This document shows positions 1,971 to 43,700 of a DNA stretch of 64,000 nucleotides, one piece after another (within the stretch, counting starts at the first letter, position 1; every line of letters starts with the position of its first letter). A program made the position numbers and the translations under genes. Source of the DNA: Botryllus schlosseri (lineage: Eukaryota); NCBI GenBank assembly GCA_051294905.1, contig CM119372.1, positions 13,766,001 through 13,830,000 of the forward strand. The letters are read 5' to 3'. Under the pieces are notes generated by a model. The model had not been told where the DNA came from and searched no databases. It saw nothing but the letters and a program-made list of their open reading frames with translations.

Positions 1971-2086
1971 ATGTTTTGCAGATATGTATTAGTGATTAAT
2001 TACAACTATCGAATATTGGAAATGCCTGCAAACAGTTGTGCCTTCCCTGGTTGTAATACTAGTCGGTAAAATAGTAATTCAGTACT
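1971..2086 (+). pseudogene. Degenerate duplicate of the first exon of the downstream THAP gene
   Basis: Aligns with 2337-2453. It reads MPANSCAFPGCNTSR then TAA (2067-2069), where the intact copy reads MPTNRCAVPGCNTSRK. Confidence 0.8.
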
Positions 2087-2388
2087 GTCATGGGATCTGT
2101 CTTATTATTATCATTAATATTTTAATGAATACTCATTTATACAGTGTATCTATTGAAATTATGGCCTCGAAAATCAGTGATGTTGTTGAGGAATGGTACG
2201 ATATTCCTCCGGAAATTGTCAGTAAACTTCTCTTCAACGACTTCGATCGAAGCAAGGACACCATATCTGTTCCAAATATTATACAGCAACCTGTTGATCT
2301 TGCACCGTTGCTGCACTCCATTTGACCATATATCTATGTGTTTTGCAGATCTGTATTGGTGATTAATTACAACAATTGAATATCGGAA

Positions 2389-3693
2389 ATGCCTACAAAC
2401 CGTTGTGCCGTCCCTGGTTGTAATACTAGTCGGAAGAATAGTAATTCAGCACTCTTTGTCATTTACAGGGTGGATCTCGCGAAGAACGAACAGGAAAGGC
2501 AGCACCGATCGCAACTACGTCGTTTTATATTGTCCATGCGCGATTCTACTGATAGAAGAGATAATATAATCAGTCAGCTCGATAGAGAATCGTGAGTTAC
2601 GGTATTTACATTGTTGTAACAGAAAATGATCTACATATATCTATTGGTGGTATGGGAGGTGTACGGCTATATTGCCGGCATGATATCAAAGCTGGTAGCT
2701 GCAATCCTGTGACTGATAGGCTACGTTGTTACTGGCATCATGCTATGATTCTTTTATGGACGATTTATTGTGTTTTCAAGAGCCCAAATATGTGATCGAC
2801 ATTTCCGGCCAGAAGATATTATAGCGGCAGGTGCTTCTGGGAAACGTCGGCTGAAATTGGGAGCGACACCTTGCCTCAATTTGCCTAAAAAGTCTGCATC
2901 ATTCTCTTCCCCGCCAAGGAAAGAGCCAGCGCCCAGAAACACAGTTGATAAAAAACTATATTATCAAAATGTTGCACAGTTAAAAAAGGACGCATCTCAT
3001 ATTCAAGGTAGGTCAAATTTAGAATAAAGTTGAATGCTAATTTGTGATTCAATCACTCTTCAATAGGTGGCTGGGTATCATATGAGAAGAAAGGAGAGCT
3101 TCATCTTGATTTGGAGGAAGCTGGTCATATTCAACCTAAAATTAGGTCAGTTTTGAATTTACCAGACTAAGACCTGCATAAATCTACAAATAAGGAAATT
3201 ACCAAGATTCCTGAGCTACTCTGAATTACAAATTTACAAATTGCAAACAGCCCGCACTTTTTGCAATGCTGTACGAGTAGCCTACATAGTTGAAGCGCAT
3301 TAGATTCTATACCAATTTGTATATTTATTTTTAAAATGTGACGAGCTTATGCCAACTCTGATCACTTTGTCTTACAGAATAGTGTTTGCCGATGACGCTA
3401 GTATGAAATCAATATCTTTTTTTGGATGGCCAGCATCTATTGCAACTTGTCTCGATGTTGACCATCGTTACCAAAGGTTGAAGACTACTTTGGGTAAATT
3501 TGGATCTGTGTAGGCGATAAGAATTTCTCATTTTAATTCATTGTGGGTTCAGAGAATTTGCAAAGCCTGAAACTATGTGATGGTATTCATTCAAGTAGTG
3601 ACAGCAGTGTCAACCGTCATGCTATACTGAGCTGGGAGGAAGGGAGTATGTCAGTACAAGACATTTTCAGGGCCCCCAGTTGCAATGCCATGG
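2389..3693 (+). CDS. Multi-exon THAP zinc-finger protein, probably the N-terminal part of a P-element/THAP9-like transposase; no 3' exons found
   Basis: Exons 2389-2591, 2781-3007, 3067-3145, 3378-3493, 3553-3693. All introns are GT-AG with matching phases (2,1,2,1) and two are 59 nt. The spliced protein has CAVPGC...QICDRHF...RLKLGATPCLNLP (C2CH THAP signature plus AVPTIF-like box), followed by ...LKLCDG...H...FRAPSC. Confidence 0.8.
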
Positions 3694-4384
3694 GTAAAAT
3701 AGCATTCAATTTAAATTGTGTTTTATGTTTTCCATGCTCTCACTCTCGTGCGCTCCGAGCTGCACCGTATTGTTCCAGACAGCTCTGTTGCGTCACAATA
3801 CTGAACTCCATTACAATCCAACATTTGAGGCTGATTTTGGGGGGTTCCAGGACCACGATCAGATTAAATTCGATATCAGTACCGCGGTAGCTTTCGATTG
3901 TTACCAATTTTATCGATTTTCACCTTCGGCAATCCGGTCGAAAATTATCGTCAAAATGCCTTGTCCGAATGGAAAGTGTGACGTAGACCAATCACAGTGA
4001 GCCTTGCGATTTGCTTGTGTCAACGCCATTGTAGGACACTTCCATGCATGGTCGACGGATGGCCGAATGGCCATGACACATGCATTGTACATACAGACTA
4101 TGTTTCCTTCGTTTCCATGCACGGACGGCAGAAAGGCTATGACGCATGCGTTGAAGACAGAGGTGGTCAAAGTAGTCAAGAAAGCTACTCAAGTAGAAGT
4201 AGAAGTAGCGACGAAAAAATCTACTCAAGTACGAGTAGAAGTACTTCTTCCATAAGCCACCTAAAACTACTTGAAGTAGAAGTAGAATTGAATGACTTTA
4301 AATCTACTCAAGTAAGTGAGTAGTTTTAAAAACAGTCTTCATTCGTTTGCATGGACCGGGGATATATAGAACTCCATTTGTCCA

Positions 4385-4512
4385 ATGTCCATTCTCGATG
4401 GTGTCCATTCTCGGTAATGTCCATTCTCGGTATCGTCAATTCTCGGTAATGTCCATTCTCGGTATTGTCCCTCTTGGTAAAAGCATTCTCGGTAATAGCA
4501 TTCTCGGTATTG
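4385..4512. repeat. Tandem ~20-bp repeat (CCATTCTCGGTAATGT-like), probably a transposon subterminal array
   Basis: Six to seven imperfect copies of (T/G)CATTCTCGGTA visible in the sequence. Confidence 0.75.
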
Positions 4513-5685
4513 ACCGGACACCGGAGACGCAGTACATGACCGGGCGCAATCCGACCGTGATTTGGCCGAAATAGGTGGGCGAAGCGTTCGCGATAACGTT
4601 TTTAGCTTACTTACCCAGCAATAATTTCATCATATCTCAAGATTGTGATAAAATGACTTTATAGGAATGAGCTGAGACAACTTGTAGCAGTCATTCAATC
4701 AAACAAACCGCTTTGACCTGGAACACGTCAGCCGAAATCCAACATGTAAAATGGTCATGATGAACCACTTCGTTAAAACTAACAGAACATAAAATAAGAT
4801 TAACAGAAGGTAAAATAAGATGGAAAAAAGATGAAAATTAGGTGGCATATCTTAGTATGTGGGCGATATAGATATGGGATATCGTGGTGGTGTGATAATT
4901 TCGAGCGCAGACATGTTGTCAAATAGTCTACTGGTACTACTGTTTCGTCATCGTGATTCAGAGATGGGCTCCGATTGTCTTGTTGATGACTTGCTTACCA
5001 GGGGACTGAGATAAGTTCACCTAGTTTGTGGTCAAGCCATAGTTTGTATTCATGCAATAGAAAACAACCCCTCGAATTTCGGTAGCCTAGGTAGCCTAGC
5101 GTGGGGCTGCCATACGTCCGGAATTTCACTGAAAAATTTGCGTCTGGAGAAATTTCTAAAATATGCCTAAATGTCCGGAATTTTGAAGGCTTGAAGTAGG
5201 CTCTAAAGTTCTCCATAAACAATATTATTTTCAAGCAGATATTTATGCTATTCGAAATTCTTCTTCGCGCTGCACGAGTTAATGCAACGTATATTGACAT
5301 TAGTTTGGGCATCAAGCACCACCCTCACCAAAAAATGCAATCAAAAATAAATATATATAACCATCATTTACTGAAATAAGCCCAATTGTAATCGCAATTA
5401 TAAGCTGACGGTATATTCTTATAGTCGGTTAAGGCCGACTGGATGCTTCAGTTCCGAATCTCGGGGTCGTTTGCCTTTATCTGGGGATCACGATGATGTT
5501 GGACGTAATCACCTTCCCAGGCCGTGAGTAAGTTTGGGTAAGCTGAAATTTTTTAGTGATTAGCTTATTCAAGTTTTGAGATGGGCCACGGAACATTTTC
5601 AAGTTGGAAATGAGGTCGCGATCATAAAATGTTGGAAATCACCGGATGTGCAACCTGCTGGTGCATTTTATAGTAGCCTAATATA

Positions 5686-5941
5686 CAGAGGTGGTCAAAG
5701 TAGTCACCGTCGCTACTCAAGTAGAAGTAGAAGTAACGCCGGAATTTCTAATCAAGTAGAAGTAGGAGTGGTGGTTCACAAGTAAGTAAGTAGGTATTCT
5801 ACGCTTATATTTGCCTACGAAACTGAAAACTGTCAAGTAGAAGTAGTCTAAAATCATAACTACTTAAAAAGTAGTGTGAGTAGCCAAAATCAATTTCAAG
5901 TACTTCAAAAAGTAGAGGTACTTCGTTACTGACCACCTCTG
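5686..5941. mobile_element. hAT-type MITE with AGTAGA subterminal repeats
   Basis: TIR CAGAGGTGGTCA...TGACCACCTCTG with 8-bp TSD CTAATATA. A left-half copy of the same family starts near 4157. Confidence 0.85.
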
Positions 5942-6253
5942 CTAATATATCTAAGAATCAATATTATTGACAGAATTCATCCATAAAATTTAACAGCCAA
6001 ATGCATAGGCCTATAGTAAGTGCCCAAAAAGTTACACCGATTACCCTATGGTTGGGCGGAAGGTGACAAAAAATGTTGTTTCGGACGTGATAAAAACACA
6101 CAATCAGATAGCTGTCAAACACACTCCCGACAGGCCAGACACGGCCCGCCAGACGATTTCATCCGGCCCGTGGAGAAATCTATTGCAGTTACCCTAGCAA
6201 GTACCAATCACCAGAGCTCACATTACAAATGGCCCAATTCATGACCTATGTTC

Positions 6254-9215
6254 CAGAGTTGAATCAATTACAATAATTCGGTTCAATTACAATTACGATT
6301 ACTCAATGCTAAAAATGTCAAATTACAATTACAATTACAATTACTGTTAAACATGTAATTTATTACAATTACAATTGCAATTACTGTTAAACATGTAATT
6401 GATTCGGTAGAGAGGTGTTCTTTGATAATCGTAGCGACGTAATTAGCAACAATCTCAAGCTATTCATGTTTCATTCATGATACGTAGAATACCCATTGAT
6501 TGAAAAAACTCGAACGCATTCGCATTCCTAATCATGAGTACTGAACACTACAAACACAGAAAAATGTTTGAACAAATGCGTGATCAAGTTTGATGAAGCC
6601 TTGGCTGGAAACTTGAATTTCTTTTTGCAATTGTTGCAGCAAGCCTCGGTACTGATGGCAGACATGGGGTAATCGCGATTAGTAATCGTAATCGATTACG
6701 ACGATTACAGCATTTTCAAGTAATCGTAATCGCAATCGATTACATTCGAAAAAATTCCCAAGTAATCGTAATCGTAATCGACTACTTCCCATATTTAATC
6801 GATTTCTTTGTGAAAGAACGATTATTTTTTATTTTTACAGGACCATGACATAAACTGAACATTCGTGCTGAACATGAACAAGGATTATACTAGTTAGTGA
6901 TAGCACAAACGTCAGATTTCCAAATGACACTGCTCATTATTACGTCAGAAGTGGCGTATTAGCTTTGCTCGTCATTGCGTAAGTATGAAGTATCCAGCTA
7001 TCCACACATAGTGAATGGATATTCGATGTACATTGGTGTGATTGCAAGAACACTCACCCTGCTGTATATCAGGTTATCGGGATAGTTAATCACCACTCTG
7101 CCTAGTTTAAAATAGTAACTTTTGTATTGATGTTTGGTTATGCTTAGTTAAACGCAGTTTGACCGTTGCTGCTTGGCGAGCTGTAGGCTTATGCAGCACG
7201 AACGTACACCGGACAAAGGTTTGAAATTTTGTAGGCCTGCTCGTCAAATAAAACATTACGGTTTCCACGACGAAGCATTAAAAATCAACAGCTGCTGATA
7301 TATATCATAACCGAGCCGTTTCTCGTAATGGCTGCTTGTATTACATTATCTGTATTAAGTTGAAGGCAGAATTTTATGTTCGCTTTCTCTAATTCTCATA
7401 TGATTCTACTTGAAACGGGCATCAATCGGTATTTCACAATGCTTTACTCAACATTTGGACCTGCCGCCGTAGCCATCGGCTTGTATATCCTCCTCGCCCA
7501 GACGTAGCAGACTAAAAGAAATACTTGCGTGAGACGCACACACAAATTGCCATGTCTTTAATGCTCTGTGCGTGCCCGGGTGGCATTTGCATTGTGGACT
7601 CAAATTGGACGGACCAGACTATTAGTCACGCCCACCCAGCGCGGCTATTGACAATGGACACATACCCCAAGTTTCGGCCAATGTCTTTCATCAGTAGCAC
7701 TCTTCGTGGATTCTCATGTTGGCCGAAACTGCATATGTCTTTTGGTGCGTCGTGGCGCGGTATTGAGTGGCACCTAAATGCCTGTTACTATAAATTATGC
7801 ATGCTTTTTTTCTTGAGGAGGAGACGTATGTATTTCAAAACCAAGCTATATAGAGACATTTAAATCGCGATGGTCGTAGAACATTTTCAAGTTCATGAAA
7901 TCTCTCGAAAATAGTCTATAATTTGTGTTGGTTTACGAAATAGGCCTACTTTTGATTTCCTTTCGAGCTCGCTCTCCACCCTATTAGGAAATTTTGGGTG
8001 CGGCAGTTGCGGAGTGCGGACGTAGCAAGAATGCAAATCGTTGGGTGCGATATATCGTCCTCTATGAAATGGGCAATGGGTATTTTATGACGTAACAAAC
8101 AAATGTCGCATCTTTTATAAAGAAAGTTGTTATCTCATTAGGCCTTTCAGCGCAATCCATATATTGTCTTCCAATATAACTTTTAAGATGGAGAGTAAAT
8201 GTAGTCGTGAGCAATCGTGATTACTTTTCCAATGTAATCGTAATCGTAATCGACTACTTCCTGATTTTGCTGTAATCGTAATCGTAATCGTAATCGCGTC
8301 ATTCAGAAGTAATCGTAATCGCAATCGATTACATTCACGAAGTAATCACCCCATGTCTGACTGATGGTCAGAGATTTAAAAATAAAACTCTGAACGTGGT
8401 GTAGGAAATGGTTCAGCACAAGTTTCAGAAGAATTTATTTGTTGTTCATTCAATTTTGAAATATTAAGATTGAGTTTAGCCCACTGATTATCTAACTTTT
8501 TGAGTCACGCCCCACTTTATGATAGTGCAATATTTCGTGCCCCACTTGTCGTCATATCACACAATGAAACCAGAATGTTAGTAATCCTTACAGATAGTTT
8601 GATGGTAAGGAAGGTTATGACTGTTGATGAGAGAATTCTCCAATATGAAATTCGGACTATACACAGAGCAATATAGCTATGAAATAGAGGTGATTCGCGC
8701 CAAGCGCGGAAATAATTTCAATTTACCGGAGCTTCGCGCCCTCTTTAGACGCATTCACGCCGCGCAAGGGGGGCACGCCCCCAAGTTTGAGAACCACTGG
8801 ATTAGCCTATAATGTAGTTCACAGAGTTGCTACTGAAGTATGGGAAACAGTTTAGCAAGGCTGAATTATCTACTTATAACCTGGCACGCATAGAACACCG
8901 ATGTAAATAGGCTAATTTTTTACAGGTGGGGATTGTGTACTAAGGCCCTAAAGCCTTCCGGCCCCTCGTCGTCATCCTGGTCCGTACCGGATTTTCACTG
9001 GTGTGACGAATAAATGATCGATTGATTGATTATTTTATGTTGTGATTGTCAGGTTTCCATAACAATGTACTTGAAATTGTAATTGAGCAAAATTTTCATC
9101 AAATTATAATTAAAATTACAATTACACAAAATAGAAATGCTTCGATTACAATTACAATTACATGAAAAAATGTAAATAATTACATTCAGCTCAATTACAA
9201 ATTGATCCAACTCTG
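6254..9215. mobile_element. hAT-type non-autonomous element with CAATTA repeats, carrying nested insertions
   Basis: TIR CAGAGTTGAATCAATT / AATTGATCCAACTCTG. 8-bp TSD CTATGTTC at 6246-6253 and 9216-9223. Confidence 0.85.
6659..8359. mobile_element. hAT-type element with GTAATC repeats, nested in 6254-9215
   Basis: TIR CAGACATGGGG / CCCCATGTCTG. 8-bp TSD ACTGATGG at 6651-6658 and 8360-8367. Confidence 0.9.
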
Positions 9216-31093: not shown

Positions 31094-34000
31094 CCCCCTA
31101 CCGCCCCATTTTCTAGCCAGCGCCCCCCAATCGCCCATTTCATGGCCAGCGCCCCCTTCACACTCGCGAACGCCCCCAGGGGGGCGCTGGCGCCCACTTT
31201 GGGAACCACTGTATTAGATAATGAGAAAATGACAGTTAATTAACAAAAACCAATAATCTATTTATTTTCCGTCATAATTCGAAACAATGTTAAGACATTA
31301 AAAAGTATTTGTGATACTGCAAAGCTTATTGTCTTGATCGGTGCCTTCCGACCAGTTGCGGCTTGGTGAAAGCTACATATATATATATATCGATTCCGTC
31401 AAATATGAGGCGGTACTTTTAGTAAAGGCTTACTCGCCGCCGAGATTTTTGGCAGCACTCTTCGCAGAGTCGTATGTTAGCCGAAACGTCATTGTTAACG
31501 TCTTGATGTGTCGTGACGCCGTAACGACCGACGCCGAAATACTGATCTCTATAAACTAGGCGTTTTATCGAGGAGAGGGGTACCCATATCAATAGCAAGA
31601 GAACTAGTCACGATAAATCGCGCGAAGCGCGAAGAAAATTTGAATAAAGTTTGTGAATATATGAAAAAGACTCTTTAAATTATGTTAATTTACGAAATAA
31701 TTTGTTGGGGCCCCTTCGAGCTAGGGCCCCCGATTGTGGGGTTTGGGGTGCGGCAATTACGGCCCTGTATTTAGTGCTCCATACCGTCTTTGAATTTTAG
31801 CTTTCGGCTTCCTTTTTGACATGCCCGTTCATCCTTTATGGATGATGATATCTCAAATTAAAAACTATTAGTATATGGATGGATTTGTTTTACAAAATAG
31901 GTATTTGGAAACGTAGCCTATCACCAAACAATTTGAAGAACAGACCGTGTAATTCGTAATGTGACAATGGCGACAAAGAAGGTTTGAACTAAACTATACG
32001 GAAAGAGTTACTTCTTGTAACTTTAATTGTTACGACATACTTTGACATACTTCATTTTGAAACTGGATTACGCATGCGAGCCTGCGAGGGACGGAGGCTG
32101 TGTAATGTAATCGCGGCATATTAATGAACATTGAACACTTGAACAGGCTTCAAAGTAAACCAATTTCCCTTCCGGTTCAGTTTATACAGCCTATGGTTTT
32201 ATTCCACGCAGCAGTATTCAAAATTAGGTTTCACATTTTGAATTTCAAGCAACGGGCACGCGGGCCACTCAGAATAGCTCCGCGGGCCGCACTTTGCCCA
32301 GGTCTGCTCTAAACAAAGGTGATCAATTCTCAAATCACTCATTTCCACGCCTCGACTGATCCGATGTGACCCAAGTGTGGAAACTAGCCTTATAACATTG
32401 CATTGGTCTCCGTGAACCAATAATAGTCTATGAACCATCTAATTTGTATGACTTGCGCATTTTTCGGCGTTTTAGCTGGGGATTAGGTAGAAATTCCATT
32501 TGCAATCTGTACTCGGAATTTGGTGAAAAGCTCAAGGCTTCCTAGCTTTAGTGTCCACTAGCGGTCATTAGCGGTCACATAGCGGTCATCAGTCATCACC
32601 ATATGATACAGCAGTGTGTGGTTCCCAACGTGGGCGATCTATCGCCTCAAGTGGGCGATTTTGAGATACAAAGGGGGAAAATACCAAAGGGGGTGATAGC
32701 GGGCAGAACATGTTAGAACGTCCATAGTGAGAGATATGTAATTAACACGGCCAAAATATGTCCTCTTTTCCGGGTCCGTAAATTTGGAGGCGAAAATTTG
32801 TGTCGAGCTTGATGAGGGGGCGATGAGTAGAAAATAGGATAGAGTCTAACACTGGACATCACTAGTTGAGGATTGTAGATGGTATAATCTATCTGCTGCT
32901 CTGCTATACAGTCTTCTGATTTCAGCCCGACTGACAGCAGGATTTTTAGCGATACCGATGTCGCTGATTTACCATATATTTCTGCCGATATAAAAATGTG
33001 ACGTTATTCTACAGAACTTCTAATTAGTGGAAGTAGTTTCAAAAACATATCTTAAATATACGTATTACGTAATGTATTTACAACAAACTCCATGTGAGTA
33101 GGAAACTATATAGTAAGTTCATTCGAACGGGGGTATACCACTGAGCTATATAAACACTGGAGTGCGCTACTCGCGATATTTGCGTGATCAATTGGCCGCC
33201 ATCTTTGGGTTAAGTTGATAGTTGCACTGTAAGCTGGTGGTGAAGGCAGAAGTGGTTGGGTGATGTGCCTGTTTTGATTACTTTTTGGCCTGGAGGTATC
33301 GATTTCGATGGTTCGGACAATATAAGGTTATATATGTGTCACAGTATGTATTCATTTGAAAATATCTTCCTGATATAGATTGCTTTACCTCGTTGTATCC
33401 AGGTAAATAAACGTATGCTTCTGCTCAAAAATTCCTGGCTTTGAGTGCTGTTTTCACAATTACTGGGTTAAGGCAATTGTCATGGCATTGATAATTCGAT
33501 TTGGATATGATACCGGTAATCCTAAGGGAGCTTGGTGATGTTGTCTTCTTTATCCCTTCAGTTTCAGGTAGGCCTACTGTGTATGGCAATTTGATTTGGA
33601 TACGACGCCATTCGTCCTGAGGGAGCTTGCTGATGTTGTCTTTTTACTCATTATAGCTTCAGTTTCATGTACTGCGTTCTCGAATTGTTGATACAACCGC
33701 ACACTGTCATTAACTATTCTTACAAATCTTGAAAACCAACAAACAGGCACATTTAGTGTAGACAAATAACCAAGCTATCAAATGATTGCAATGGATAATG
33801 CCAGTTTTGTTGTTATGTTCCAGGTACTGTATCTATAGGTAGTAAAAGCACCTACGCCTATGACCACCAGCTTCAAGTTATTAACGGAGACTGCCTCAGA
33901 ATTACCCTGGCCTCGATTCGAAATCTTCTCACAACAATGGCGCTGATGTCAATGCTAATGCTGCCAGCTATACGTGGTGACTATAAATACCACTGACGGA

Positions 34001-34556
34001 GAAAAATCCAGCATCATGTGACATGGAAAGGCGCAGCTACAATCAAAGTTATACCATCTAATTTTTATTCTTACTTATTCATTGTGTCAAAGTAGTCGGA
34101 ATAAATCCTAGAAAGTGAAAGTGAGAATATGTGAGTTATGTGTAGCAATATGGGTTAGTGATTTCTGCAGAGGTGATCAAATGAGAGCAATAATATATTT
34201 ATATCATTGAATGAGAGATACTAGATGAATGCACGAGTCCTTATTTCTATCTGGGTACAATTGCCTAGCGGTCACTGAAATTGACGCTATGTCGGTTACA
34301 GCAATCTGCGCTCTAAGAGTAAATTAACGTTACTGATTTGATCAGATAGTAACGTTACTGATTTGATCAGATAGCAAGGTAACTCAACGACAACCTGGCT
34401 TTAGATATACCATTTCTGGGATCACACGCGCTGTACTGTGTCTACCAAAATGCTGAACTTCGTTTTCAGAAACACCAGCTTCAGTTATGAGAAACGAAGG
34501 TTTTGAATGATTTTTCTATTAAAATAACAACATGAAAAAATAAAAACAGAAATAAA

Positions 34557-36272
34557 TTAATTAATCGTTATTGACTTTACGTCGCCCTGGACGTAATTGA
34601 GGGTGATCTGAAAGTAAAATGAGGGATAAGTTAGGGCTTAATATCTGCGGACAAGGCATATTAAACGTACCGATTCAGACTGCAGCTCAAGTGTAATTGA
34701 TTTTTTCTTCTTCCGAAGATAGGGCACGGTCACCGTGATCCCCGTCTTAAAGCGGCGGCGGCGGCGACGTCGACGTGTGCGTCGGGGACGGGGGTTAGCG
34801 GGATCAACACTGTTCAAGAGGTATGAACTAAAATTCGAGAAATTTCTGACTAAACACATTGATCAACACACCTTGGAGCTGCGTCGACCTCCCTCCCTTC
34901 TTTGGTTTCTTTTGGTAGGGGAGGGAGGTCCCAGATGATCGGAGTCCTGAACAATATAGATGATTGTTTGTATAATGAAAATGACATTGGCGCCATATTC
35001 ATTGGGTTACCTTTTGACCGTTACCTCATTCTGGCAGCATGCAATCTCTTTTTAATTTGTACCACTCTACGGCGTTGCTGTTGAATGAGCTTTTGAGGAG
35101 AGGTACGTGCAGAGTAATTGTGGTCGTGGAGAACTGCTTCACCAGTCTGTACTTTACAATAACGTTTCTTATCTTGAAGTGTTGCTGGTCTCGCTTGCCG
35201 TTTGTTGGAAGCCTGAAATCAACGAATTTCAAATTAACGAATTTCATATCAACAGTGGCTAGGGTAAGGGTATGCTAATATAAACTTGACTTTAGAAGTA
35301 AATTTATAAATTCCTACTGTACCTTTGTCCTCATATATTTCGGAAAGTTCAGAAATCTTGTTGGCACCGCATTCTCCCTCAAACGTATCAACTGGCCCAC
35401 ACGGTAAATGGCACTTTCCGGAAAATGATCGGAGCAGATAACTGACGATCTTGATGGAACCCAGTTTTTTCTTTTTATGCTTTCTACCCATCTTCCTTTC
35501 AGCGATTCATTAGTAGGAAAGCTGCATTATACGGAGCATTGTATGAAGCAAAGCACACTAAATAGGCAATTCTTTGTTATGGGCTATGATAAAAGCAGAA
35601 GGTACATAAAATATCTTGTCTGATAAAATTATACATCTGTCACTTTCCACTCCATAGGCTTATTGTATTCAAGATTGAGGTAGCTTTCTAAAGCTAAAGC
35701 AGTTCAAAGGTAAACCTTGAAAAATATTTTTGAATAAATAAATTGACAGTTTCGCACAAAGCTATAAGGACTATAGATGAACTTGACTATGGAATTTGCA
35801 AATTCCACAGTATTTGTTTAGAATCTGAACAAGATATCCTGTTTTACCTATATGCTGATAAAAACCCATAGGCCATTAATTGAATCTTTCCTTGTATTCC
35901 TACTCTTGCCTACATAGCATAACCAAGAATTTAATACCACACTGATTATTGGCCGAACTGCTTGTACTCGATCATGGAGAAAATACAAAGAGTGAGATGG
36001 ACATTATTACAGATTATTACAGATATTGATGATGAACATTACATAGCTGATATGGTGACACGGATTTCTGCTGGTAGTCTGGTCTGGTCATTTCATTCAT
36101 ATAACTGCAACGAAATGTTCTGCTATCAATTTACCATGACCTGTTTATTACAACTGTGACTGATCTGGCCATGTCTGGCTGCTATGCTTATTCTGTTATT
36201 CACTTACCGGTGAAAAGTTCTGGGGTATCGCCGCTTTACTATCGACTCTTCATCACTACTGCCGTCACTATT
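34557..36272 (-). CDS. THAP-domain gene, 3' portion: rest of the split exon plus exons B-F
   Basis: Exons 36272-36208 (NSDGSSDEESIVKRRYPRTFHR), 35521-35323 (FPTNESLKGRWVESIKRKNWVPSRSSVICSDHF...RLRENAVPTRF), 35212-35025 (...VLHDHNYSARTSPQKLIQQQRRRVVQIKKRLHAARM), 34946-34872, 34809-34671 (Arg-rich) and 34607-34557 (stop). All introns are GT-AG with consistent phases. Confidence 0.85.
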
Positions 36273-36435
36273 TTTTCTGTCTGCACGGCTTGTCACCGAA
36301 TTGTCGTAATTTTACAAGGCCCTGTGGATATAAAGCTGTATCAGCTGTACCAGCTGTATTCAAATTGGTTGAATTAAGATATACGTATTGATAACTTATA
36401 TCATTATATGCACTGCTGCACTGTGATGCTAGAAA

Positions 36436-37200
36436 ATGTCACAAAGATCCTCGTCCAAAAAGAATGTGGATTACGAAACTATACTATCGAAGCTGGATGC
36501 ACTTTCAGACAAGATGGATGATCAAAAACTACAAAATGGCCAAAAGTTCTCTGAACTCATGAAAGAAATCATAGAACTCAAAAAGAGTGCCGAATTCCTA
36601 AACGAAAAATATGAGGAGATAAAAGGTAAACTTGATACTACGAGCAAGCAACTGTCGAAGGTCGAATCGGAAAATAACTACCTGAAGAAAATTGTACACG
36701 ACCTCCAAACATCCAACAGAGAGACCAATAGAGCAATAAACGATCTGGAGCAATATGGAAGAAGAGAATGCATTGAATTGCAAGGAATACCCTACCACGA
36801 GAAGGAGTGTACTGAAGATCTTGTAATGTCAGTTGCCAAAAAAGTAGATGTGACAGTCACAAAGCACGATATAAGTGTTTGTCATAGACTAGCTCAACCA
36901 ACTGAAGACTATCCTGATCCTATCTTGATAGTCAAATTTTGCTCGAGAAGAGTTCGTGACATGATCTACAACAGCAGATCAATACTGCACAAAACTAAAG
37001 AAAAAATATACATCAATGAGAGCCTTACGAAGACTAACCGAAAAAGATTCAATGCATGCCTAAAATTCAAAAGAGCCAACAAGTTCAAATACATATGGAC
37101 AAGGCAAGGAGTATCCTACTTGAGAAAGGACGACGAAAGCCAAATTTGGACAATCAGAAGTGATGATGATCTGACAAGGTATGACATCCCCCTAGAATGA
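36436..37200 (+). CDS. LINE ORF1 protein (coiled coil plus L1-ORF1-like RNA-binding region)
   Basis: 254-aa intact ORF. Heptad coiled coil followed by LEQYGRRECIELQGIP, HRL, ILIVKF, IYINESLT and KYIWTRQG motifs typical of this ORF1 type. Confidence 0.9.
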   Translation: MSQRSSSKKNVDYETILSKLDALSDKMDDQKLQNGQKFSELMKEIIELKKSAEFLNEKYEEIKGKLDTTSKQLSKVESENNYLKKIVHDLQTSNRETNRAINDLEQYGRRECIELQGIPYHEKECTEDLVMSVAKKVDVTVTKHDISVCHRLAQPTEDYPDPILIVKFCSRRVRDMIYNSRSILHKTKEKIYINESLTKTNRKRFNACLKFKRANKFKYIWTRQGVSYLRKDDESQIWTIRSDDDLTRYDIPLE

Positions 37201-37240
37201 ACTGTAACCACTAATTCAGCCTTGATCAATAGATAAGAAA

Positions 37241-40200
37241 ATGCCCGTCTTATTTCCATGTGGCTCTTGCCACAAACCATGCAAGTCAAATCAGCCTTGC
37301 ATTTGCTGTGATATCTGTGACCACTGGACTCATTTGAAGTGCACCAAACTGACGACACCGCAATTCAATCTTATCGGAACTACTGATGAGTATTATTATT
37401 GCTGCCAATGCCTAAACTCGGAGTTACCATTTTCATCACTTGACAACATGCAACTAACTAGGGAATTATCTTATGTCAAAAATTTATCTAGCTCTGACCT
37501 ACCTAAGGGATTCTCTAATTATTATAGTATAGAAGAATTTAATGCTCCTACTGATGATAGCCCTTATATTACTATGCTACATGCTAATGTAAGATCACTT
37601 CCTAAAAACAGTGGCTTAGTCACTTTGTTAATTTCTGAGTTTTCAAGACATCCTGACATACTTGCCATAAGTGAAACGAGATTATCTACTGTCCTTCCTT
37701 TTGACGTCCATATTGATGGATATACATTTATCAATGCAAATTCTCCCACAGTAGTGGGTGGAGTGGGGTTCTATATTAGGAACAATGTCCAATTCCATAT
37801 CACTTCAGAGTTTGGCCTGAATCTTCAAGGCTGTGAAGACCTGTGGATTGAAATAACTTTGGTGAATAAAAAAAAGAGAGAAAACATCATAATAGGTGCA
37901 ATCTACAGACACCCTCACCAATCGATGGCTCAATTCATAGATGCAATGGAAAACTGCTTCGAGAAGTTGACCCTACAACAAAAAACTTTTTACTTGTTGG
38001 GAGACTTCAACATAGACCTCCTTAAATCAGATAACAAATATTCTGTGGATCTGTCCAACCTAATATCATGTTTCTCGTGTCTTTCATTAATTAAAGATCC
38101 AACTAGAATAACTCATAACTCACAGACACTAATTGACCTCATATTCACCAACAATCAGGTCGAGCACCAATCCGGAATATTAAGAAGCGATATATCTGAT
38201 CACTTACCAACTTTCTGTAAAATCATGAATGCTTCAGTAGGAGTGAAACACAAAATAGCCTACACTCGTAACTATAGAAATCTCTCGGAGGACAACTTCT
38301 CGAATGAACTTTTTGATGCAATAAATGACCTTGAAGTCGAAAGTAGAACTCAAACTGATGATATAAATAATAACTTTTCATCTCTAATTAATACCATCAA
38401 CTCCCTAATTGAAAAACATGCACCTCTCCGCAAAAAAACTCGCAGGGAGATGAGATACGCAAATAAACCATGGCTGACCTCTGCAATCCGAATCTCAATA
38501 GCGACTCGACGCAAACTCTACAAGAGTCATTTTCTTTCCGGTGTAGATAGCAAAGTGGAACTGTATAAAAATTACACAAATATATTAACCAAATTGAAGA
38601 AAGGTGATCAAACAAAAACATGGGGGCTCTTTAATAAACTTTTTAAATCAACTGAGCAAAAAAAATTTCCAACTAAAATCAGCATAGGCAATACAACCGT
38701 AACATCTGAACTTGACATATGCAAGGCTTTCAACCAATACTTTGCAAATATTGGCAGAAACCTTGCTGACAAACATGTGCCTACCAATAACTACAAGAAA
38801 TATCTCGATAAACCACAACAGAACTCTATCTTTGTCCAGCCAGTCGTTGAGAATGAAGTCATCGCGATAGTTCACTCATTTAAGAATGATACAGCCACAG
38901 GCCCAGATTGTATTCCAGTCTTTATTCTGAAAGAGATCATATATACAATATTACCTATACTCACTAAACTGATCAATAAATGCTTCGAGCTTGGGATCTT
39001 CCCTGATATTTTGAAAGTAGCCAGAGTCACGCCTGTTCTGAAGAAAGGCAATCCTAAAGATCTCACCAATTATAGACCAATCTCTATTTTGCCTATTTTT
39101 TCTAAAATTACAGAAAAATTAATACTTAAAAGGCTAACTTGCTTCGTTGAGAAATTTAGCATAATATCCAGAAAACAATTTGGTTTCAGAGAGCGTCACT
39201 CAACCCAGCATGCAGTTATAGATAGTATAAATAACATCTCTAAAAACCTTTTCAGTAATCTATCCACCATCTGCATCTTTCTAGATCTAAAAAAGGCATT
39301 TGATACAGTGGATAGATCAATACTCTTGGAGAAATTATCTCACTATGGAGTTAGGGGTAACATGTATAAGCTACTACAGTCCTATTTATGTAATAGATGG
39401 CAATTTGTTAAAAATGGTGAAGTCTCAACAGACAAGCTCGAAATTGAAATGGGTGTACCTCAAGGATCAGTTCTGGGTCCTTTCCTATTTTTAATTTATA
39501 TTAATGATATAGACAATGTATCGGACTTCACAATTCAACTGTTTGCAGATGATACATCTCTCATGCTCTCATCTTGTAATACGGCTGACCTTGAGTATTC
39601 ATGTAATGCAAATCTAATAAAAATATATGACTGGATGTGTAGCAATAGACTAACAATAAATACTTCAAAAACACACTGTATGTTCTTTGGTAAAGGTACT
39701 CCAAAAGACATAGTACTGAAGCTCAATAATGAAAGACTTACTTTCCAGACGTCTCTATCCTATCTTGGCATAATTATAGATAATAAGCTATCCTGGGGGG
39801 ATCACATTAATTCAATTTGCATTAAACTATCGAAAGCCATAGGAATCTTAAGAAAAGTTCGTTTCCTATTACCACTTTCCACACGACTAACAATATATCA
39901 CACACTCTTCCACTCGCACTTGACTTATGGGGTCGTATTGTGGGGTTCAGCTAAAGCCAAATACTTGAATCGGATCAAAAGCCTGCAGAATAAAGCAATT
40001 AAATTGACTTGTCTCGCCAATCGCAGAGATAGTGTAAATCCTTTATATAGTCGCTTGAACATCTTAAAAGTTGAAGATATTCACTTTTATGAAATAGGTA
40101 AGCTCATGCATGGCTACTACAATGAGAGCCTACCAGAAATCTTCCTAGACTATTTCACTCATATCACCAGTCACCATTCACACAATACCCGAGGCTCTTC

Positions 40201-40357
40201 TATGAATCTATTCATACCCCGAGAACATCCTAAGACTATCAGTTTCCAAGGTCCTCGTATATGGAACTCCATTCCACCCCATATTAAAGATAAACCACTC
40301 CATATCTTTAAACAAGTGTTTCACGAATATCTTGTAGGAAAATATGAACATTCTTAA
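37241..40357 (+). CDS. LINE ORF2: PHD finger + apurinic-like endonuclease + reverse transcriptase
   Basis: 1038-aa intact ORF. N-terminal C4HC3 PHD (CGSC..CDIC..H..C..CCQC); APE motifs (NVRSL, ISET, IYRHP, GDFN, IDLIF, SDH); RT motifs (YRPISIL, FLDLKKAFDTV, GVPQGSVLGP, FADD, YLG). Confidence 0.96.
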   Translation: MPVLFPCGSCHKPCKSNQPCICCDICDHWTHLKCTKLTTPQFNLIGTTDEYYYCCQCLNSELPFSSLDNMQLTRELSYVKNLSSSDLPKGFSNYYSIEEFNAPTDDSPYITMLHANVRSLPKNSGLVTLLISEFSRHPDILAISETRLSTVLPFDVHIDGYTFINANSPTVVGGVGFYIRNNVQFHITSEFGLNLQGCEDLWIEITLVNKKKRENIIIGAIYRHPHQSMAQFIDAMENCFEKLTLQQKTFYLLGDFNIDLLKSDNKYSVDLSNLISCFSCLSLIKDPTRITHNSQTLIDLIFTNNQVEHQSGILRSDISDHLPTFCKIMNASVGVKHKIAYTRNYRNLSEDNFSNELFDAINDLEVESRTQTDDINNNFSSLINTINSLIEKHAPLRKKTRREMRYANKPWLTSAIRISIATRRKLYKSHFLSGVDSKVELYKNYTNILTKLKKGDQTKTWGLFNKLFKSTEQKKFPTKISIGNTTVTSELDICKAFNQYFANIGRNLADKHVPTNNYKKYLDKPQQNSIFVQPVVENEVIAIVHSFKNDTATGPDCIPVFILKEIIYTILPILTKLINKCFELGIFPDILKVARVTPVLKKGNPKDLTNYRPISILPIFSKITEKLILKRLTCFVEKFSIISRKQFGFRERHSTQHAVIDSINNISKNLFSNLSTICIFLDLKKAFDTVDRSILLEKLSHYGVRGNMYKLLQSYLCNRWQFVKNGEVSTDKLEIEMGVPQGSVLGPFLFLIYINDIDNVSDFTIQLFADDTSLMLSSCNTADLEYSCNANLIKIYDWMCSNRLTINTSKTHCMFFGKGTPKDIVLKLNNERLTFQTSLSYLGIIIDNKLSWGDHINSICIKLSKAIGILRKVRFLLPLSTRLTIYHTLFHSHLTYGVVLWGSAKAKYLNRIKSLQNKAIKLTCLANRRDSVNPLYSRLNILKVEDIHFYEIGKLMHGYYNESLPEIFLDYFTHITSHHSHNTRGSSMNLFIPREHPKTISFQGPRIWNSIPPHIKDKPLHIFKQVFHEYLVGKYEHS

Positions 40358-40695
40358 TAAATGTGTCAATCAGCGTCTCTTTGCCTAGTTTGTGTTCCTG
40401 TAGCCAGTGCAATTGTTTTATCTCGTTTATTCAGGTTACCTACTGTGATCCCACTTATTTTTTCATCTGTTTCTGATACATTGCGTATATGTTATATTTT
40501 TTGCTTGCAAATGTGTTATATTATGTGATAAGTTTCATATTACAACCATCCTTTCAGGCTGTAGCTGACTTGATGATCTCCCGATCCCTTCGCTACAGCC
40601 TGGTTCTGAATTATATATACTTTCCTTTGTATTTATCTATACCATGTTTATTATCAATGTTCATGGACCGAATAAATTCTCTCTCTCTCTCTATT

Positions 40696-40799
40696 ACTTC
40701 TTGCATACGACTCACTGGATATCTTCTTCCGCCTTTTACTGCACCCATAGGCACAGCAAAGACTACCACTACCCCTGATGAACGTACTATCTTCGACAT
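40696..40799 (-). CDS. THAP-domain gene, 5' part of the LINE-split first coding exon
   Basis: Minus frame reads GSGSLCCAYGCSKRRKKISSESYARS and continues in frame into NSDGSSDEES across the LINE. The nearest ATG (40799) is out of frame at a G run. An acceptor TTTGTTTCAG lies at 40845-40844. Confidence 0.75.
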
Positions 40800-43700
40800 G
40801 TCGAATTACACGGAATATCAATATACTGGCACGAGATATTGGGCTGAAACAAATCCTGAATGTTAGAATAATTAGTCATTCAAAGCTCTATACGCATACA
40901 GTACTACAGACCCAATACGAATCAAATATATTGAAACATTAACCGCTTTTCCATAAGCCCCTGTACTAAATCAATTTACCGTGTACCCACAATGCATCTG
41001 CGCACGGGGATCACGCAAATTTGCTTAGTCGGAGATAGCAGTAGTTCGGGGCTTGGGGTATACGTATAGTTAAGGAAAAATACACTTCCGTATTTTCCCG
41101 ATATTCGAGCAGGTGTTGTGCCCATAAATCAATCCAACTGCAATAAAGGCTCTCTCGATTATAAAATTTGTAGGGATGATGATTTCATTGAACAGGTCGA
41201 TAAATATCGACTGCAGTTAGCTGACTTCAATCAAAGTGACGGACTTGCAATATTTTCGATCATTCAGGGCTGCGGTTTCCGTTTCCTCCGTGCGCCTGAC
41301 ATTTCGAGCCGTTTGTCGGCACTAAAATAAAAAAAATGGAGGCGAGTCTACTAGTTCAATAAATCGATCAATGGACGGATTATATTTTCATGTGCCCAAG
41401 GCACACACACAATGCACAATGCTATATACAAGACTCGCAATGCGATTTAATGAACAGATAGGGGGATGCCGAACGACCAACCAGTTGAGGTCTCTTGAAC
41501 TGGCATCCACCTCGACCTAGTGCCCGATGTCACAGTATTCTTCGATGCTATTCTTTCTTCTTCGGTCCTTTTGAGAAGCAATTTCTTGCTCTTTTCTTTC
41601 GTTATCTGGTCTTTTTTCTGAGCATTTTTGTCGCCGTAGCATGCGGTTACATCGCTGGAAGGAAGGTGAAGTTGCAGCAAATAGATGCCAAGGCAATACG
41701 CACGAATCAATTGTGAAGTCACATATCTGAAAATCATGCCTCCAGCCTGGCTAATCCAGCCTAAGCCCGTTTAGGCCAACAGCGAGCAACACACTGCCAA
41801 CACCATGCATCCTGCGACGGGATTTTGTGTGGCTCACGGACAGCTTCAGTTCAGGTCCAATCTGGACCTAAGGTATTGTGAAGTCATGTTTCTTAACTAC
41901 GTCAGAACGGACCTTTGGCGTCAATATACTGTTTTATTACTGAAATATACCGCCACTGATTCAGCACACAAATAGGCCTGTATACTTTCTCTAATAATAT
42001 AATCAATAATGTCAGACACAAGACACACAAAATGCACGATGCGATAAGACACAATGCGCTGTAATGAACAGATAGGCGGATTCCTAACGACCAGTAGCGG
42101 TCTCTTAAACTGGCATCCACATCGGCCTATGTCACTGTTCCTTTTTCGATGTAAGTCTCTATTCCGAGTCTCTTTCTTGCACCTTCCATTCTTTTTGTCA
42201 TTGCGCTTCTTCATCGGGTATGTTTCTGGGCTTTTTTGTCGCCGCAAGAACAGAGATGCGGTGGGGCCCTACGTAGGCCCCGGATGCGGGGGAAGAGGAG
42301 CCCAGAATAACCTCAGACGGGGAATTGGACTAGAGCCGACTATAGGCGGCAGGCGCTTTTCGTCAGCACTATACGCTATCTCCCCCCCGTAAAGATTCAG
42401 ATTAGAAGTAAAAGTTGCCCGCCTTTGGCTTAGGGCTGTACCATGGAAGTAAATGATGGTTCCAAAACATTCTCTCACGTCTGGCCACCACATGCAAGCC
42501 TGTGACATCAGTAATCCATTTCCCTGTGACTGTTGGAACGTTGCCAAACACTTGGTGGGGTGTAATTTTATTGAGTCATCTCAAACGCAGACTACAGTAA
42601 GTTTAAATCTCAATTAACGATTCGCTGATGTGAATTACTCTGTCTTTATACTAAAGTCGTAGACCACTACAATGTCACGCGGTTTACAATCATATTTGAA
42701 ATTTGCCAAAACAAACCTTACGTAAAATCCCTACCGCGACAAAATTTGGCCAACGACAAAATTGTGTATTACGGCGTACTCGTGGATTGCAGCCGTTATC
42801 AACTTCATACATTTTGTTATCTGCAATTGTTGTCTGCAATTGTAGGTAAATTGAAGCATTGCCTATGAGCTGAGAGATATTTACTGTCCAACCTAACTTT
42901 CGCTATAACAAGATAGCGAACTAGAAGACAAATGCGAAAAATTTCAACGAACAACCAAATCCAGGGTAGACCAAGCCAAATATGCCGCGAAAGTACAGTG
43001 CGGATTGCGGATAGTTTCAATGTTCAGTTTATCCATCAGTATTTTCTTTCACACTTGGCATATGGCATATTTTCATAAATACCATATCGCAAGACAGCTA
43101 TTATACCAGAAGGTATAGTAATGTAATATATAGATCGGGAGTAGGCTAGTTGCGGTAAAGCGTTTCACTCCAACGGATTCGGGTCCCGAAATGCAAGGAT
43201 TGGGGTTACGGATCAACGGATAGCTCTTTACATTTCACGAGCTTAGCGTAACGTTCGTTGCCGTATATTCGAATGATTTGAAGCGAGAAGAAGTAGGGAT
43301 ACGCTTGACTACAATAGTTACGCGTGCGTGGTACCCCATAATGTCTCTTATCGAAATGGCTATGAATGCCCACCATTTCAATGCCGAAGATTCAGCCAGC
43401 AGACGCACCGAAAACTGTAAGTACGATATTCATGCTCGTAGTAGAATCTAAAGATTAACCATCAAGAGTTCGATATCTTTCCATCAGCAAACATTGATTT
43501 TGCCTTATTTTGAGGTGAGATGGATATCTAATATTACATCAATTCTGACGTGATTAATACATGGCGTATGTAAACTATACTACAACTACAAGCAATTACA
43601 ACTATTTGCGTAGTACCGAATACTGATAGTAATTTGGCCTTCTTGGATGGCATGTATTAATGAGCAGAAGTATACAATTTTATAGATTTGTCCATGACAT

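What the first reader, a model, noticed from the sequence alone, without database searches (positions are those of the whole stretch)
34557..40843. Hidden THAP zinc-finger gene whose first coding exon is split by an intact antisense LINE
Seen in sequence: deleting 36273-40690 and one CTATT copy rejoins the minus-strand frame as LCCAYGCSKRRKKISSESYARS-NSDGSSDEESIVKRRYPRTFHR. This splices in phase to FP...W...ICSDHF...RLRENAVPTRF, then to a DHNY motif and a coiled coil. Established: this C2CH + AVPTIF + (D/E)HxY HCF-1-binding motif + coiled coil layout is that of THAP1-like transcription factors. The THAP motifs do not appear in the ORF track. Inference: the intact ORFs and exact TSD indicate a young insertion, possibly a polymorphic knockout allele.
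Basis: partly seen in the sequence, partly recalled or inferred. Interest (0 to 1): 0.85.

Follow-up and report, generated by a model that had tools for sequence, protein, structure and literature searches.

The report
LINE nested in dead P-type transposon
The "hidden THAP gene" is the front end of the transposase gene of a many-copy P-element-type jumping gene, and this copy, already crippled by a large deletion and a frameshift, was later hit by a young LINE: ordinary nested mobile DNA, not a knocked-out host regulator.

Summary
A 4.4-kb LINE (36273-40690, + strand, two open ORFs, CT tail, CTATT duplication) interrupts a minus-strand THAP-coding exon. Six uninterrupted copies elsewhere in the genome read straight through the predicted empty site.

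The interpretation does not hold. Both flanks of the LINE occur at 39 or more other loci at 91-99% identity. They belong to a ~7.4-kb DNA transposon with 8-bp target duplications in 7 of 7 copies. Its 913-aa spliced protein runs THAP, (D/E)HxY motif, coiled-coil stretch, P-element HTH, split RNase H with GTP-binding insertion. That is a P-element/THAP9-type transposase.

The window copy (33139-41055) is broken three times:
- an internal deletion removed all catalytic domains;
- a 1-base deletion separates the ATG from the zinc finger;
- the LINE splits exon 1.

The LINE family is young, with a sibling 100% identical over 1177 bases. Whether the insertion is polymorphic could not be settled, because paralogous copies mimic an empty allele in reads. 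This is a new member of a known kind, of low interest.

The parts
33139..41055 (-). Whole copy of a P-element/THAP9-type DNA transposon. It is internally deleted and carries the nested LINE.
   Evidence: BLAST of the full-length copy L021 against the window gives three blocks: element 4-372 = 41055-40688, 359-1613 = 36278-35024, 5569-7425 = 35030-33138. Termini and duplications were read.
41056..41063 (.). 8-bp target-site duplication of the P-type element (GTATACCC read on the minus strand), 5' side.
   Evidence: The same 8 bases stand at 33131-33138. Seven of 7 copies examined have 8-bp duplications.
33131..33138 (.). 8-bp target-site duplication of the P-type element, 3' side.
40691..41055 (-). 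5' end of the P-type element. It holds the terminus CAAGCC..., a 12-bp subterminal inverted repeat (ATTTGCGTGATC), the ATG at 40797-40799, a 1-base deletion near 40773, and the first part of exon 1 with the C-x4-C of the zinc finger.
   Evidence: Alignment with six other copies. Subterminal repeat. Thirty-nine other loci at 92-99% identity.
36273..40690 (+). Inserted segment. It consists of 86 bases of non-LINE sequence (36273-36358), then the LINE with ORF1 36433-37200, ORF2 37226-40357 and a (CT)6 tail at 40679-40690.
   Evidence: Other LINE copies start at query positions 87-131. Siblings are 98-100% identical.
36268..36272 (.). CTATT, the LINE target-site duplication on the LINE's 5' side.
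   Evidence: It is single in the six uninterrupted copies.
40691..40695 (.). CTATT, the LINE target-site duplication on the LINE's 3' side.
36208..36272 (-). Second part of transposase exon 1, ending in ...TFH(R), with the GT donor at 36206-36207.
   Evidence: It aligns without a gap at the insertion site to P0010, a database THAP9-like protein whose Pfam THAP hit covers profile 1-87.
35323..35521 (-). Transposase exon 2, the C-terminal two-thirds of the THAP domain (FP...W...CSDHF...AVPTRF).
   Evidence: Pfam THAP 1.9e-10. THAP1 and THAP2 structures at about 1e-9. The intron 2 joint is seen in RNA.
35025..35212 (-). Start of transposase exon 3. It holds DHNY (35114-35125) and the first half of the basic/heptad stretch. 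The frame is cut by the internal deletion and stops at TAA 35021-35023.
   Evidence: Other copies read on into 792 aa of P-transposase domains.
35024..35030 (.). Breakpoint of the internal deletion. About 3.95 kb (element 1614-5568) is missing, with up to 7 bases shared by both sides.
   Evidence: Only the window spans it, 1 of 41 matches with 40 of 133 candidates scored.
33139..35023 (-). 3' non-transposase part of the element, 97% identical to element 5569-7425.
   Evidence: ORFs of this part have no Pfam family.

Best explanation
The window holds a dead copy of a P-superfamily (P element/THAP9-like) cut-and-paste DNA transposon on the minus strand, at 33139-41055, flanked by an 8-bp target duplication.

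In full-length ~7.4-kb copies elsewhere, three exons encode a 913-aa transposase. Its parts in order are an N-terminal THAP zinc finger with a long acidic/serine insert, a (D/E)HxY motif, a basic heptad stretch, a P-type HTH, an RNase H domain split by a GTP-binding insertion, and a C-terminal region.

The window copy suffered three events whose order is unknown:
1. An internal deletion of about 3.95 kb removed everything from mid coiled coil to well past the stop codon. Such deletions are typical of gap repair after excision; that origin is inferred.
2. A 1-base deletion lies between the ATG and the zinc finger.
3. A young APE/RT LINE retrotransposed in antisense into exon 1. It made a 5-bp CTATT duplication and carried 86 extra bases at its 5' end.

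Shown: the anatomy, the copy number, the duplications, the domains, and splicing of intron 2 in RNA from some copy.
Inferred: the mechanism of the deletion, target-primed reverse transcription for the LINE, and that the copy has no function.
For: Repeat status:
- The LINE's left and right flanks each match 39 other loci on many contigs at 91-99% identity (40 of 71 and 40 of 299 candidates scored, so these are lower bounds).

Element structure:
- L021 and L026 share 7436 bases at 98.4% identity. L022-L025 are internal-deletion derivatives with the same two ends.
- 8-bp duplications flank 7 of 7 copies.

Protein:
- The exon 3 frame of L021 (792 aa) hits Pfam Tnp_P_element HTH 3.7e-24, TNP-like RNaseH_N 5.6e-46, GBD 5.5e-47 and RNaseH_C 3.6e-22.
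- It matches the solved Drosophila P transposase 6P5A at 3e-17.
- The spliced L021 product is 913 aa with no internal stop. It is 50% identical over 923 columns to P0010, named 'DNA transposase THAP9' by its source.
- The window's excised and spliced frame aligns to P0010 at 4e-37, running through the LINE site and both exon junctions.

Family activity:
- Five loci have an open 792-aa frame at 99-100% identity, and five more at 89-92%.
- The intron 2 joint (GT..AG on the minus strand) appears in 2 raw RNA reads of X24 and in one contig of X6.

Published P-element hallmarks match. The review PMC7776569 (passages read) lists 8-bp duplications, subterminal inverted repeats, internally deleted copies, and the order THAP, leucine zipper, HTH, split RNase H with GBD, CTD.
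Against: - No long terminal inverted repeat was found. The tips share only CA...TG, plus a 12-bp subterminal inverted repeat 36-39 bases in. Drosophila P has 31-bp and zebrafish P-like elements 13-bp terminal repeats.
- The Tnp_P_element_C hit is below its cut-off (17.9 against 22.6 bits).
- Exon 1 alone gives no Pfam THAP hit, in the window or in L021. The N-terminal C-x4-C part of the domain therefore rests on alignment to P0010 and on reading the motif.
- The 1-base deletion is seen only in the assembly. All contigs covering that place in run X1 carry the extra base. They are probably from paralogs, but an assembly error is not excluded.
- The coiled coil was judged by eye and by alignment only.
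Confidence: 0.93

Rival explanations
1. One reading: a cellular THAP1-like transcription-factor gene of the host whose first coding exon was knocked out by a recent LINE insertion, possibly as a polymorphic null allele.
For: - The THAP hit of exon 2.
- The (D/E)HxY motif and basic heptad stretch.
- The exact rejoining of the frame.
- The young LINE.
Against: - The 'gene' is a dispersed repeat of 39 or more other copies with transposon ends and 8-bp duplications.
- Intact copies encode a complete P-type transposase.
- The window copy also has a 3.95-kb internal deletion and a frameshift.
Confidence: 0.02
2. Before the LINE landed, this deletion derivative worked as a KP-like repressor. It would have been a 186-aa THAP + (D/E)HxY + half coiled-coil protein that occupies transposase binding sites, so the LINE insertion removed a transposon-control factor.
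For: - The deletion leaves the DNA-binding end in frame, with a stop directly at the breakpoint. This is the layout of the Drosophila KP repressor. The KP papers appear in the reference list of PMC7776569; the 207-aa size is recalled.
- The family looks active, with 5 open copies at 99-100%, so a repressor would have a target.
Against: - This breakpoint is unique to the window, 1 of 41 matches, so the derivative was not amplified or selected.
- A frameshift precedes the zinc finger.
- Only half of the heptad stretch remains.
- No expression specific to this copy can be told from reads, because paralogs are 97-99% identical.
Confidence: 0.04
3. The copies arose by segmental or tandem duplication of a host gene family, not by transposition.
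For: Two near-identical full copies lie 85 kb apart on contig C10 in opposite orientation.
Against: - Copies sit on at least 14 contigs with unrelated flanks.
- Homology stops at the same two nucleotides in every copy, and each copy has its own 8-bp duplication.
Confidence: 0.01

Closest known systems
Drosophila P element and its 87-kDa transposase (PDB 6P5A/6PE2); zebrafish P-like (Pdre/THAP9) elements; human THAP9
   Same: - The domain order is the same: THAP, dimerisation stretch, HTH, RNase H split by a GTP-binding insertion, C-terminal region (review PMC7776569).
- 8-bp target duplications, subterminal inverted repeats, and many internally deleted copies beside a few full-length ones.
- A (D/E)HxY motif after the THAP domain, as predicted for human THAP9 at residues 123-126 (10.1101/2020.10.06.328815).
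   Different: - The element is 7.4 kb against 2.9 kb for Drosophila P.
- No clear terminal inverted repeat beyond CA...TG.
- The THAP domain carries a ~25-residue acidic/serine insert between C-x4-C and FH.FP, shared with P0010.
- About 3.6 kb follows the transposase stop, including a 156-aa frame copied from a DUF6729-protein gene family.
- Only 3e-17 to the fly protein. The best database relatives are 50-65% identical.
THAP1-like cellular transcription factors (THAP1, THAP11/Ronin)
   Same: A C2CH THAP finger with AVPT(I/R)F, a (D/E)HxY motif and a following coiled-coil-like stretch.
   Different: The host factors are single-copy genes without transposase domains or transposon ends. Here the same exon 3 reads on into a transposase, and the unit is a mobile repeat.
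KP-type internally deleted P elements (repressor-encoding)
   Same: An internal deletion keeps the THAP DNA-binding end and part of the dimerisation stretch and removes the catalytic part. A stop follows at the breakpoint.
   Different: The breakpoint is unique and not amplified. The frame is broken by a 1-base deletion and by the LINE. No function was tested.
APE-type non-LTR retrotransposons (LINEs) with microsatellite tails
   Same: Two ORFs. ORF2 has an APE endonuclease and a reverse transcriptase. There is a short target duplication and a simple-repeat 3' tail. Copies have variable 5' ends.
   Different: - The clade was not determined.
- ORF1 matches the baculovirus FP domains (Baculo_FP_2nd 3.4e-10; Baculo_FP at 16.6 bits is under its 24.7-bit cut-off).
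- ORF2 begins with a Cys/His-rich PHD-like stretch that is not significant (E 0.36).
- This copy has 86 foreign bases at its 5' end.
Kolobok superfamily (THAP-bearing transposases; noted elsewhere in this genome, e1-7786766)
   Same: A THAP domain at the N-terminus of a spliced transposase.
   Different: Pfam finds P-type HTH, RNase H and GBD domains, and the duplication is 8 bp of varying sequence. Kolobok's TTAA target is recalled.

Membership tests
P superfamily DNA transposon (P element / THAP9-like) | N-terminal THAP C2CH DNA-binding domain | tested here: met
   Exon 2 hits Pfam THAP at 1.9e-10 in the window and 7.2e-11 in L021. The N-terminal part aligns to P0010, whose THAP hit covers profile 1-87. 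Exon 1 alone gives no hit.
P superfamily DNA transposon (P element / THAP9-like) | [quoted passage not shown] | tested here: met
   Met in full-length copies: PF12017 3.7e-24, PF21787 5.6e-46, PF21788 5.5e-47, PF21789 3.6e-22; 6P5A 3e-17. In the window copy these domains are deleted.
P superfamily DNA transposon (P element / THAP9-like) | 8-bp target-site duplication | tested here: met
   Seven of 7 copies, each with a different 8-mer. The window has GTATACCC.
P superfamily DNA transposon (P element / THAP9-like) | Terminal inverted repeats (13-31 bp in described elements) | tested here: not met
   Only CA...TG at the tips. A 12-bp subterminal inverted repeat lies 36-39 bases from each end.
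P superfamily DNA transposon (P element / THAP9-like) | Full-length copies accompanied by internally deleted non-autonomous copies sharing both ends | tested here: met
   L021 and L026 are full length. L022-L025 and the window copy are deleted, each with a different breakpoint.
P superfamily DNA transposon (P element / THAP9-like) | C-terminal domain (Tnp_P_element_C) | tested here: inconclusive
   17.9 bits against a cut-off of 22.6, E 0.0048. About 240 residues follow RNaseH_C.
THAP1-like cellular transcription factor gene | Host gene: one or few copies, no transposon ends, protein ends after the coiled coil | tested here: not met
   Thirty-nine or more other copies. Shared termini with 8-bp duplications. 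Intact copies continue into the transposase.
THAP1-like cellular transcription factor gene | HCF-1 binding through (D/E)HxY | not testable with these tools
   The DHNY motif is present (35114-35125). A (D/E)HxY sits 99-116 residues before the HTH anchor in 53 of 70 relatives that have 100 or more residues upstream. Binding itself was not tested.
APE-type non-LTR retrotransposon (LINE) | ORF2 with APE endonuclease and reverse transcriptase; insertion flanked by a target duplication; 3' tail | tested here: met
   Exo_endo_phos 3.5e-10 and RVT_1 3.2e-34. The CTATT duplication is confirmed by 6 of 6 empty paralogous sites. The tail is (CT)6.
APE-type non-LTR retrotransposon (LINE) | Assignment to a named clade (CR1, L2, I, Jockey ...) | not tested
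   No reference set of LINE reverse transcriptases was on hand and no tree was built.

The most novel reading that the evidence does not exclude
This P-type family may still be mobile in this species: 5 copies are open at 99-100%, spliced RNA exists, and the insertion at this very site may be absent in another individual. Its positionally conserved (D/E)HxY motif, present in 53 of 70 relatives from several animal phyla, may mean that recruiting HCF-1 is an ancestral working part of P-type transposases, later inherited by domesticated THAP9 and perhaps by cellular THAP factors. On that reading, short THAP + HxY deletion derivatives like this one would act as KP-like repressors.
Probability: 0.2. 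Interest if true: 0.45.

Novelty: new member of a known kind. Interest (0 to 1): 0.15.

Why it matters
It matters mainly for annotation. A convincing-looking 'THAP1-like gene knocked out by a LINE' turns out to be a transposase fragment, so it should be masked as a repeat and not modelled as a host gene or scored as a loss-of-function allele.

The useful by-products are two apparently recent mobile families in this genome:
- a 7.4-kb P-type DNA transposon with intact 913-aa transposase copies;
- a LINE with siblings 99-100% identical.

A third by-product is the observation that the HCF-1-type motif sits at a fixed place in most P-type transposases. That gives a testable link between mobile P elements and the cellular THAP/HCF-1 system.

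Tried and rejected
- **Pfam on exon 1 alone.** No family at E up to 1 or 10 (window 40693-40875; L021 779-946). The first 22 profile positions with a long insert are too little for the model. I used alignment to P0010 instead.
- **First Pfam call.** It was rejected for a wrong frame and re-sent with corrected coordinates.
- **Reads for an empty allele.** The joint 36267->40691 (skips 4423) is present in contigs of X1, X5 and X6. The one long record shown (X6, 550 bases) differs from the window by 16 letters and 1 gap, and carries the extra base near 40773. It therefore comes from paralogous copies. This gives no verdict on polymorphism of the LINE.
- **RNA holders.** No RNA holder was listed by the look-up of sequencing runs.
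- **Intron 1.** Its joint was not listed, so only intron 2 is confirmed by RNA.
- **Strand of the RNA in X24.** It could not be used. First mates lie on the minus strand, although the intron is GT..AG on the minus strand, so the library is either unstranded or forward-stranded.
- **Amplification of the window's deletion.** Tested and rejected: 1 of 41 matches spans the breakpoint.
- **LINE clade.** A literature search for Baculo_FP in LINE ORF1 found nothing bearing on it (listing only). The clade is left open.
- **Earlier notes of this scan.** None near this place and none by sequence.
- **Paper reading.** They failed on a two-letter term and were re-sent.

Full report
**1. The observation**

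A frame holding C-x4-C (CCAYGC) runs up to AATAG at 40691-40695. About 4.4 kb of foreign sequence follows. After a second AATAG at 36268-36272 the same frame continues to a GT donor at 36206-36207.

On the + strand the foreign segment has two long open frames:
- 36433-37200, 255 aa;
- 37226-40357, 1043 aa.

Pfam calls the second an APE endonuclease plus reverse transcriptase (Exo_endo_phos 3.5e-10, RVT_1 3.2e-34). The first is a coiled-coil protein with a baculovirus-FP-like domain (Baculo_FP_2nd, 3.4e-10). The 3' end is (CT)6 directly before CTATT.

Exon 2 (35323-35521) hits Pfam THAP at 1.9e-10, above the curated cut-off, over profile positions 23-87 of 87. The missing first quarter of the domain must therefore lie upstream. 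Exon 2 also matches the solved THAP1 and THAP2 domains at about 1e-9.

**2. The 'gene' is a repeat**

I searched the window's own 495-Mb assembly with the 323 bases left of the LINE and the 310 bases right of it. Each search found the window plus 39 other loci at 91-99% identity on many contigs. Only 40 of 71 and 40 of 299 candidates were scored, so these counts are lower bounds.

In 30 of the 39 loci the right-flank match lies directly adjacent with a 5-base overlap. For the other 9, nothing appears's capped list.

I fetched six copies (L021-L026) and aligned them with the window after leaving out the LINE by coordinates. All six read straight through the insertion site with a single CTATT.

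**3. What the repeat is**

- L021 and L026 share 7436 bases at 98.4% identity.
- L022-L025 have the same two ends but lack different internal parts.
- Homology among copies stops at the same nucleotides, CAAGCC... at one end and ...CTCAGTG at the other.
- Each of 7 copies, the window's included, is flanked by its own 8-bp direct duplication. The window's is GTATACCC, at 41056-41063 and 33131-33138.

In L021 the exon 3 frame does not stop where the window's does. It runs for 792 aa and hits Tnp_P_element HTH (3.7e-24), TNP-like RNase H N-terminal (5.6e-46), the GTP-binding insertion domain (5.5e-47) and RNase H C-terminal (3.6e-22). A hit to Tnp_P_element_C is below its threshold. The frame matches the solved Drosophila P transposase 6P5A at 3e-17.

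Splicing L021's three exons at the same GT/AG borders gives a 913-aa protein with no internal stop. It is 50% identical over 923 columns to P0010, which its source names 'DNA transposase THAP9'.

The review PMC7776569 (passages read) lists the hallmarks of P elements: 8-bp duplications, subterminal inverted repeats, internally deleted copies, and this domain order. All are met here except a long terminal inverted repeat. The tips share only CA...TG, and there is a 12-bp subterminal inverted repeat 36-39 bases from each end.

**4. The window copy**

BLAST of the full element against the window gives this layout:

| Element positions | Window positions |
|---|---|
| 4-372 | 41055-40688 |
| (LINE) | 36273-40690 |
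| 359-1613 | 36278-35024 |
| 5569-7425 | 35030-33138 |

About 3.95 kb is deleted. That stretch held the second half of the coiled coil, the HTH, both RNase H halves, the GTP-binding domain and the C-terminus. Up to 7 bases are shared at the breakpoint.

The frame stops at TAA immediately after the breakpoint.

The breakpoint is unique to the window, 1 of 41 matches with 40 of 133 candidates scored.

All six other copies have one more base near 40773. That base puts the ATG at 40797-40799 in frame with the zinc finger. The window lacks it, so its THAP frame has no start codon.

The copy is thus broken three times. The order of the events is unknown.

**5. The THAP layout belongs to the transposase**

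The window's excised and spliced frame aligns to P0010 at 4e-37. The alignment is continuous across the LINE site and both exon junctions. P0010's Pfam THAP hit covers profile 1-87 at residues 8-106. The long acidic/serine stretch in which the LINE sits is conserved between the two proteins.

Of the 120 database relatives listed (plus L021), 70 carry the HTH anchor motif and have 100 or more residues upstream of it. Of these 70, 53 have a (D/E)HxY motif 99-116 residues before the anchor. In the control stretch downstream of the anchor the motif occurs 0.18 times per 140 residues.

A predicted HCF-1 motif is reported for human THAP9 at residues 123-126 (10.1101/2020.10.06.328815, passages read).

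**6. Activity of the two families**

P-type family:
- Five loci have an open 792-aa frame at 99-100% identity.
- Five more are open at 89-92%, and one at 63% (57 of 351 candidates scored).

In the raw RNA run X24, 2 reads show the joint that removes intron 2 (35213-35322, GT..AG on the minus strand). One contig of X6, which is only guessed to be RNA, shows it too. Some copy therefore makes spliced mRNA. The intron 1 joint was not listed.

LINE family:
- Over its first 1028 bases, five other loci are 98-99% identical.
- Over its last 1177 bases, one locus is 100% identical, six are 99% and four are 98% (40 of 211 candidates scored).

'Young' is therefore supported.

**7. The LINE's 5' end**

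Other copies share sequence with the window's only from about 36359 onward (query positions 87-131; alignment). The 86 bases at 36273-36358 lie inside the duplication but are not LINE sequence. They resemble a 33-bp tandem repeat that occurs in inverted arrays elsewhere and is abundant in the RNA reads. This could be a 5' transduction or a template switch. It was not resolved.

**8. Polymorphism**

Contigs of X1, X5 and X6 contain the form that skips 36268-40690. The long record shown differs from the window by 16 letters and a gap and has the extra base near 40773, so it comes from paralogs. With copies 97-99% alike, short reads cannot tell an empty allele from a paralog.

There is one hint in the opposite direction. 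An X5 contig of 604 bases covers the unique flank from 41055 rightwards and continues leftwards for 320 letters that do not lie on the transposon. An X1 contig stops at 41055. This would fit absence of the whole transposon at this site in the X5 individual. No more reads could be laid, so this is untested.

**9. Verdict**

This is a LINE nested in a dead, internally deleted P-type transposon copy. The biological reading, a host THAP1-like gene with a knockout allele, is wrong. It is a new member of a known kind, of low interest.

The boldest reading not excluded is that the family is still mobile and that its conserved (D/E)HxY motif is a working HCF-1 link ancestral to THAP9.

Earlier notes of this scan report other P-type and Kolobok elements in the same genome. 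They add context and were not re-tested here.

Noticed in passing
window 36273-36358; also G000:C2:9608398-9609573, C15:12646546-12647816, C7:9362648-9363783, C5:24929328-24930405: The 86 bases at the LINE's 5' end resemble a 33-bp tandem repeat. Elsewhere this repeat forms paired inverted arrays about 1 kb apart, which look like foldback or MITE elements. RNA reads pile up on it and show 'goes back 28-41' joints.
   Followed up: partly
L021:4428-4898 (absent from the window copy); L031:1564-5328 (-): Full-length copies of the P-type element carry a 156-aa open frame downstream of the transposase. It is 81% identical to part of a 1255-aa frame elsewhere that holds Pfam DUF6729 (1.5e-86). It looks like a captured fragment of another gene or element family.
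   Followed up: partly
window 38926-40218: Six RNA reads of X24 (2 start places) skip 1291 bases inside the LINE, with GT..AG on the minus strand. This is a spliced antisense transcript through some LINE copy.
   Followed up: no
window 41055-41333 (run X5, record 16): A contig from another individual covers the unique flank and runs on for 320 letters unlike the transposon. This hints that the P-type insertion itself is absent there.
   Followed up: no
window 35169: Six of 7 RNA reads of X24 lack 2 bases here relative to the window. The expressed copy or copies therefore differ from the window copy in exon 3.
   Followed up: no
G000:C10:4341767-4344142 and C10:4426137-4428512: Two full-length copies with 100% identical transposase frames lie about 85 kb apart in opposite orientation. 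Just upstream of the second lies a 3'-terminal fragment of another copy (L021 92-498).
   Followed up: no
window 36433-37200: The LINE's ORF1 matches the second baculovirus FP domain above its cut-off (3.4e-10). It matches the first FP domain below cut-off (16.6 against 24.7 bits). I found no paper on this resemblance.
   Followed up: partly
L021 spliced protein, C-terminal region: A second (D/E)HxY-type motif (EHDY) lies in the C-terminal part of the transposase. The motif occurs 72 times in 57,233 residues downstream of the HTH anchor among relatives, so part of that background may itself be conserved.
   Followed up: no
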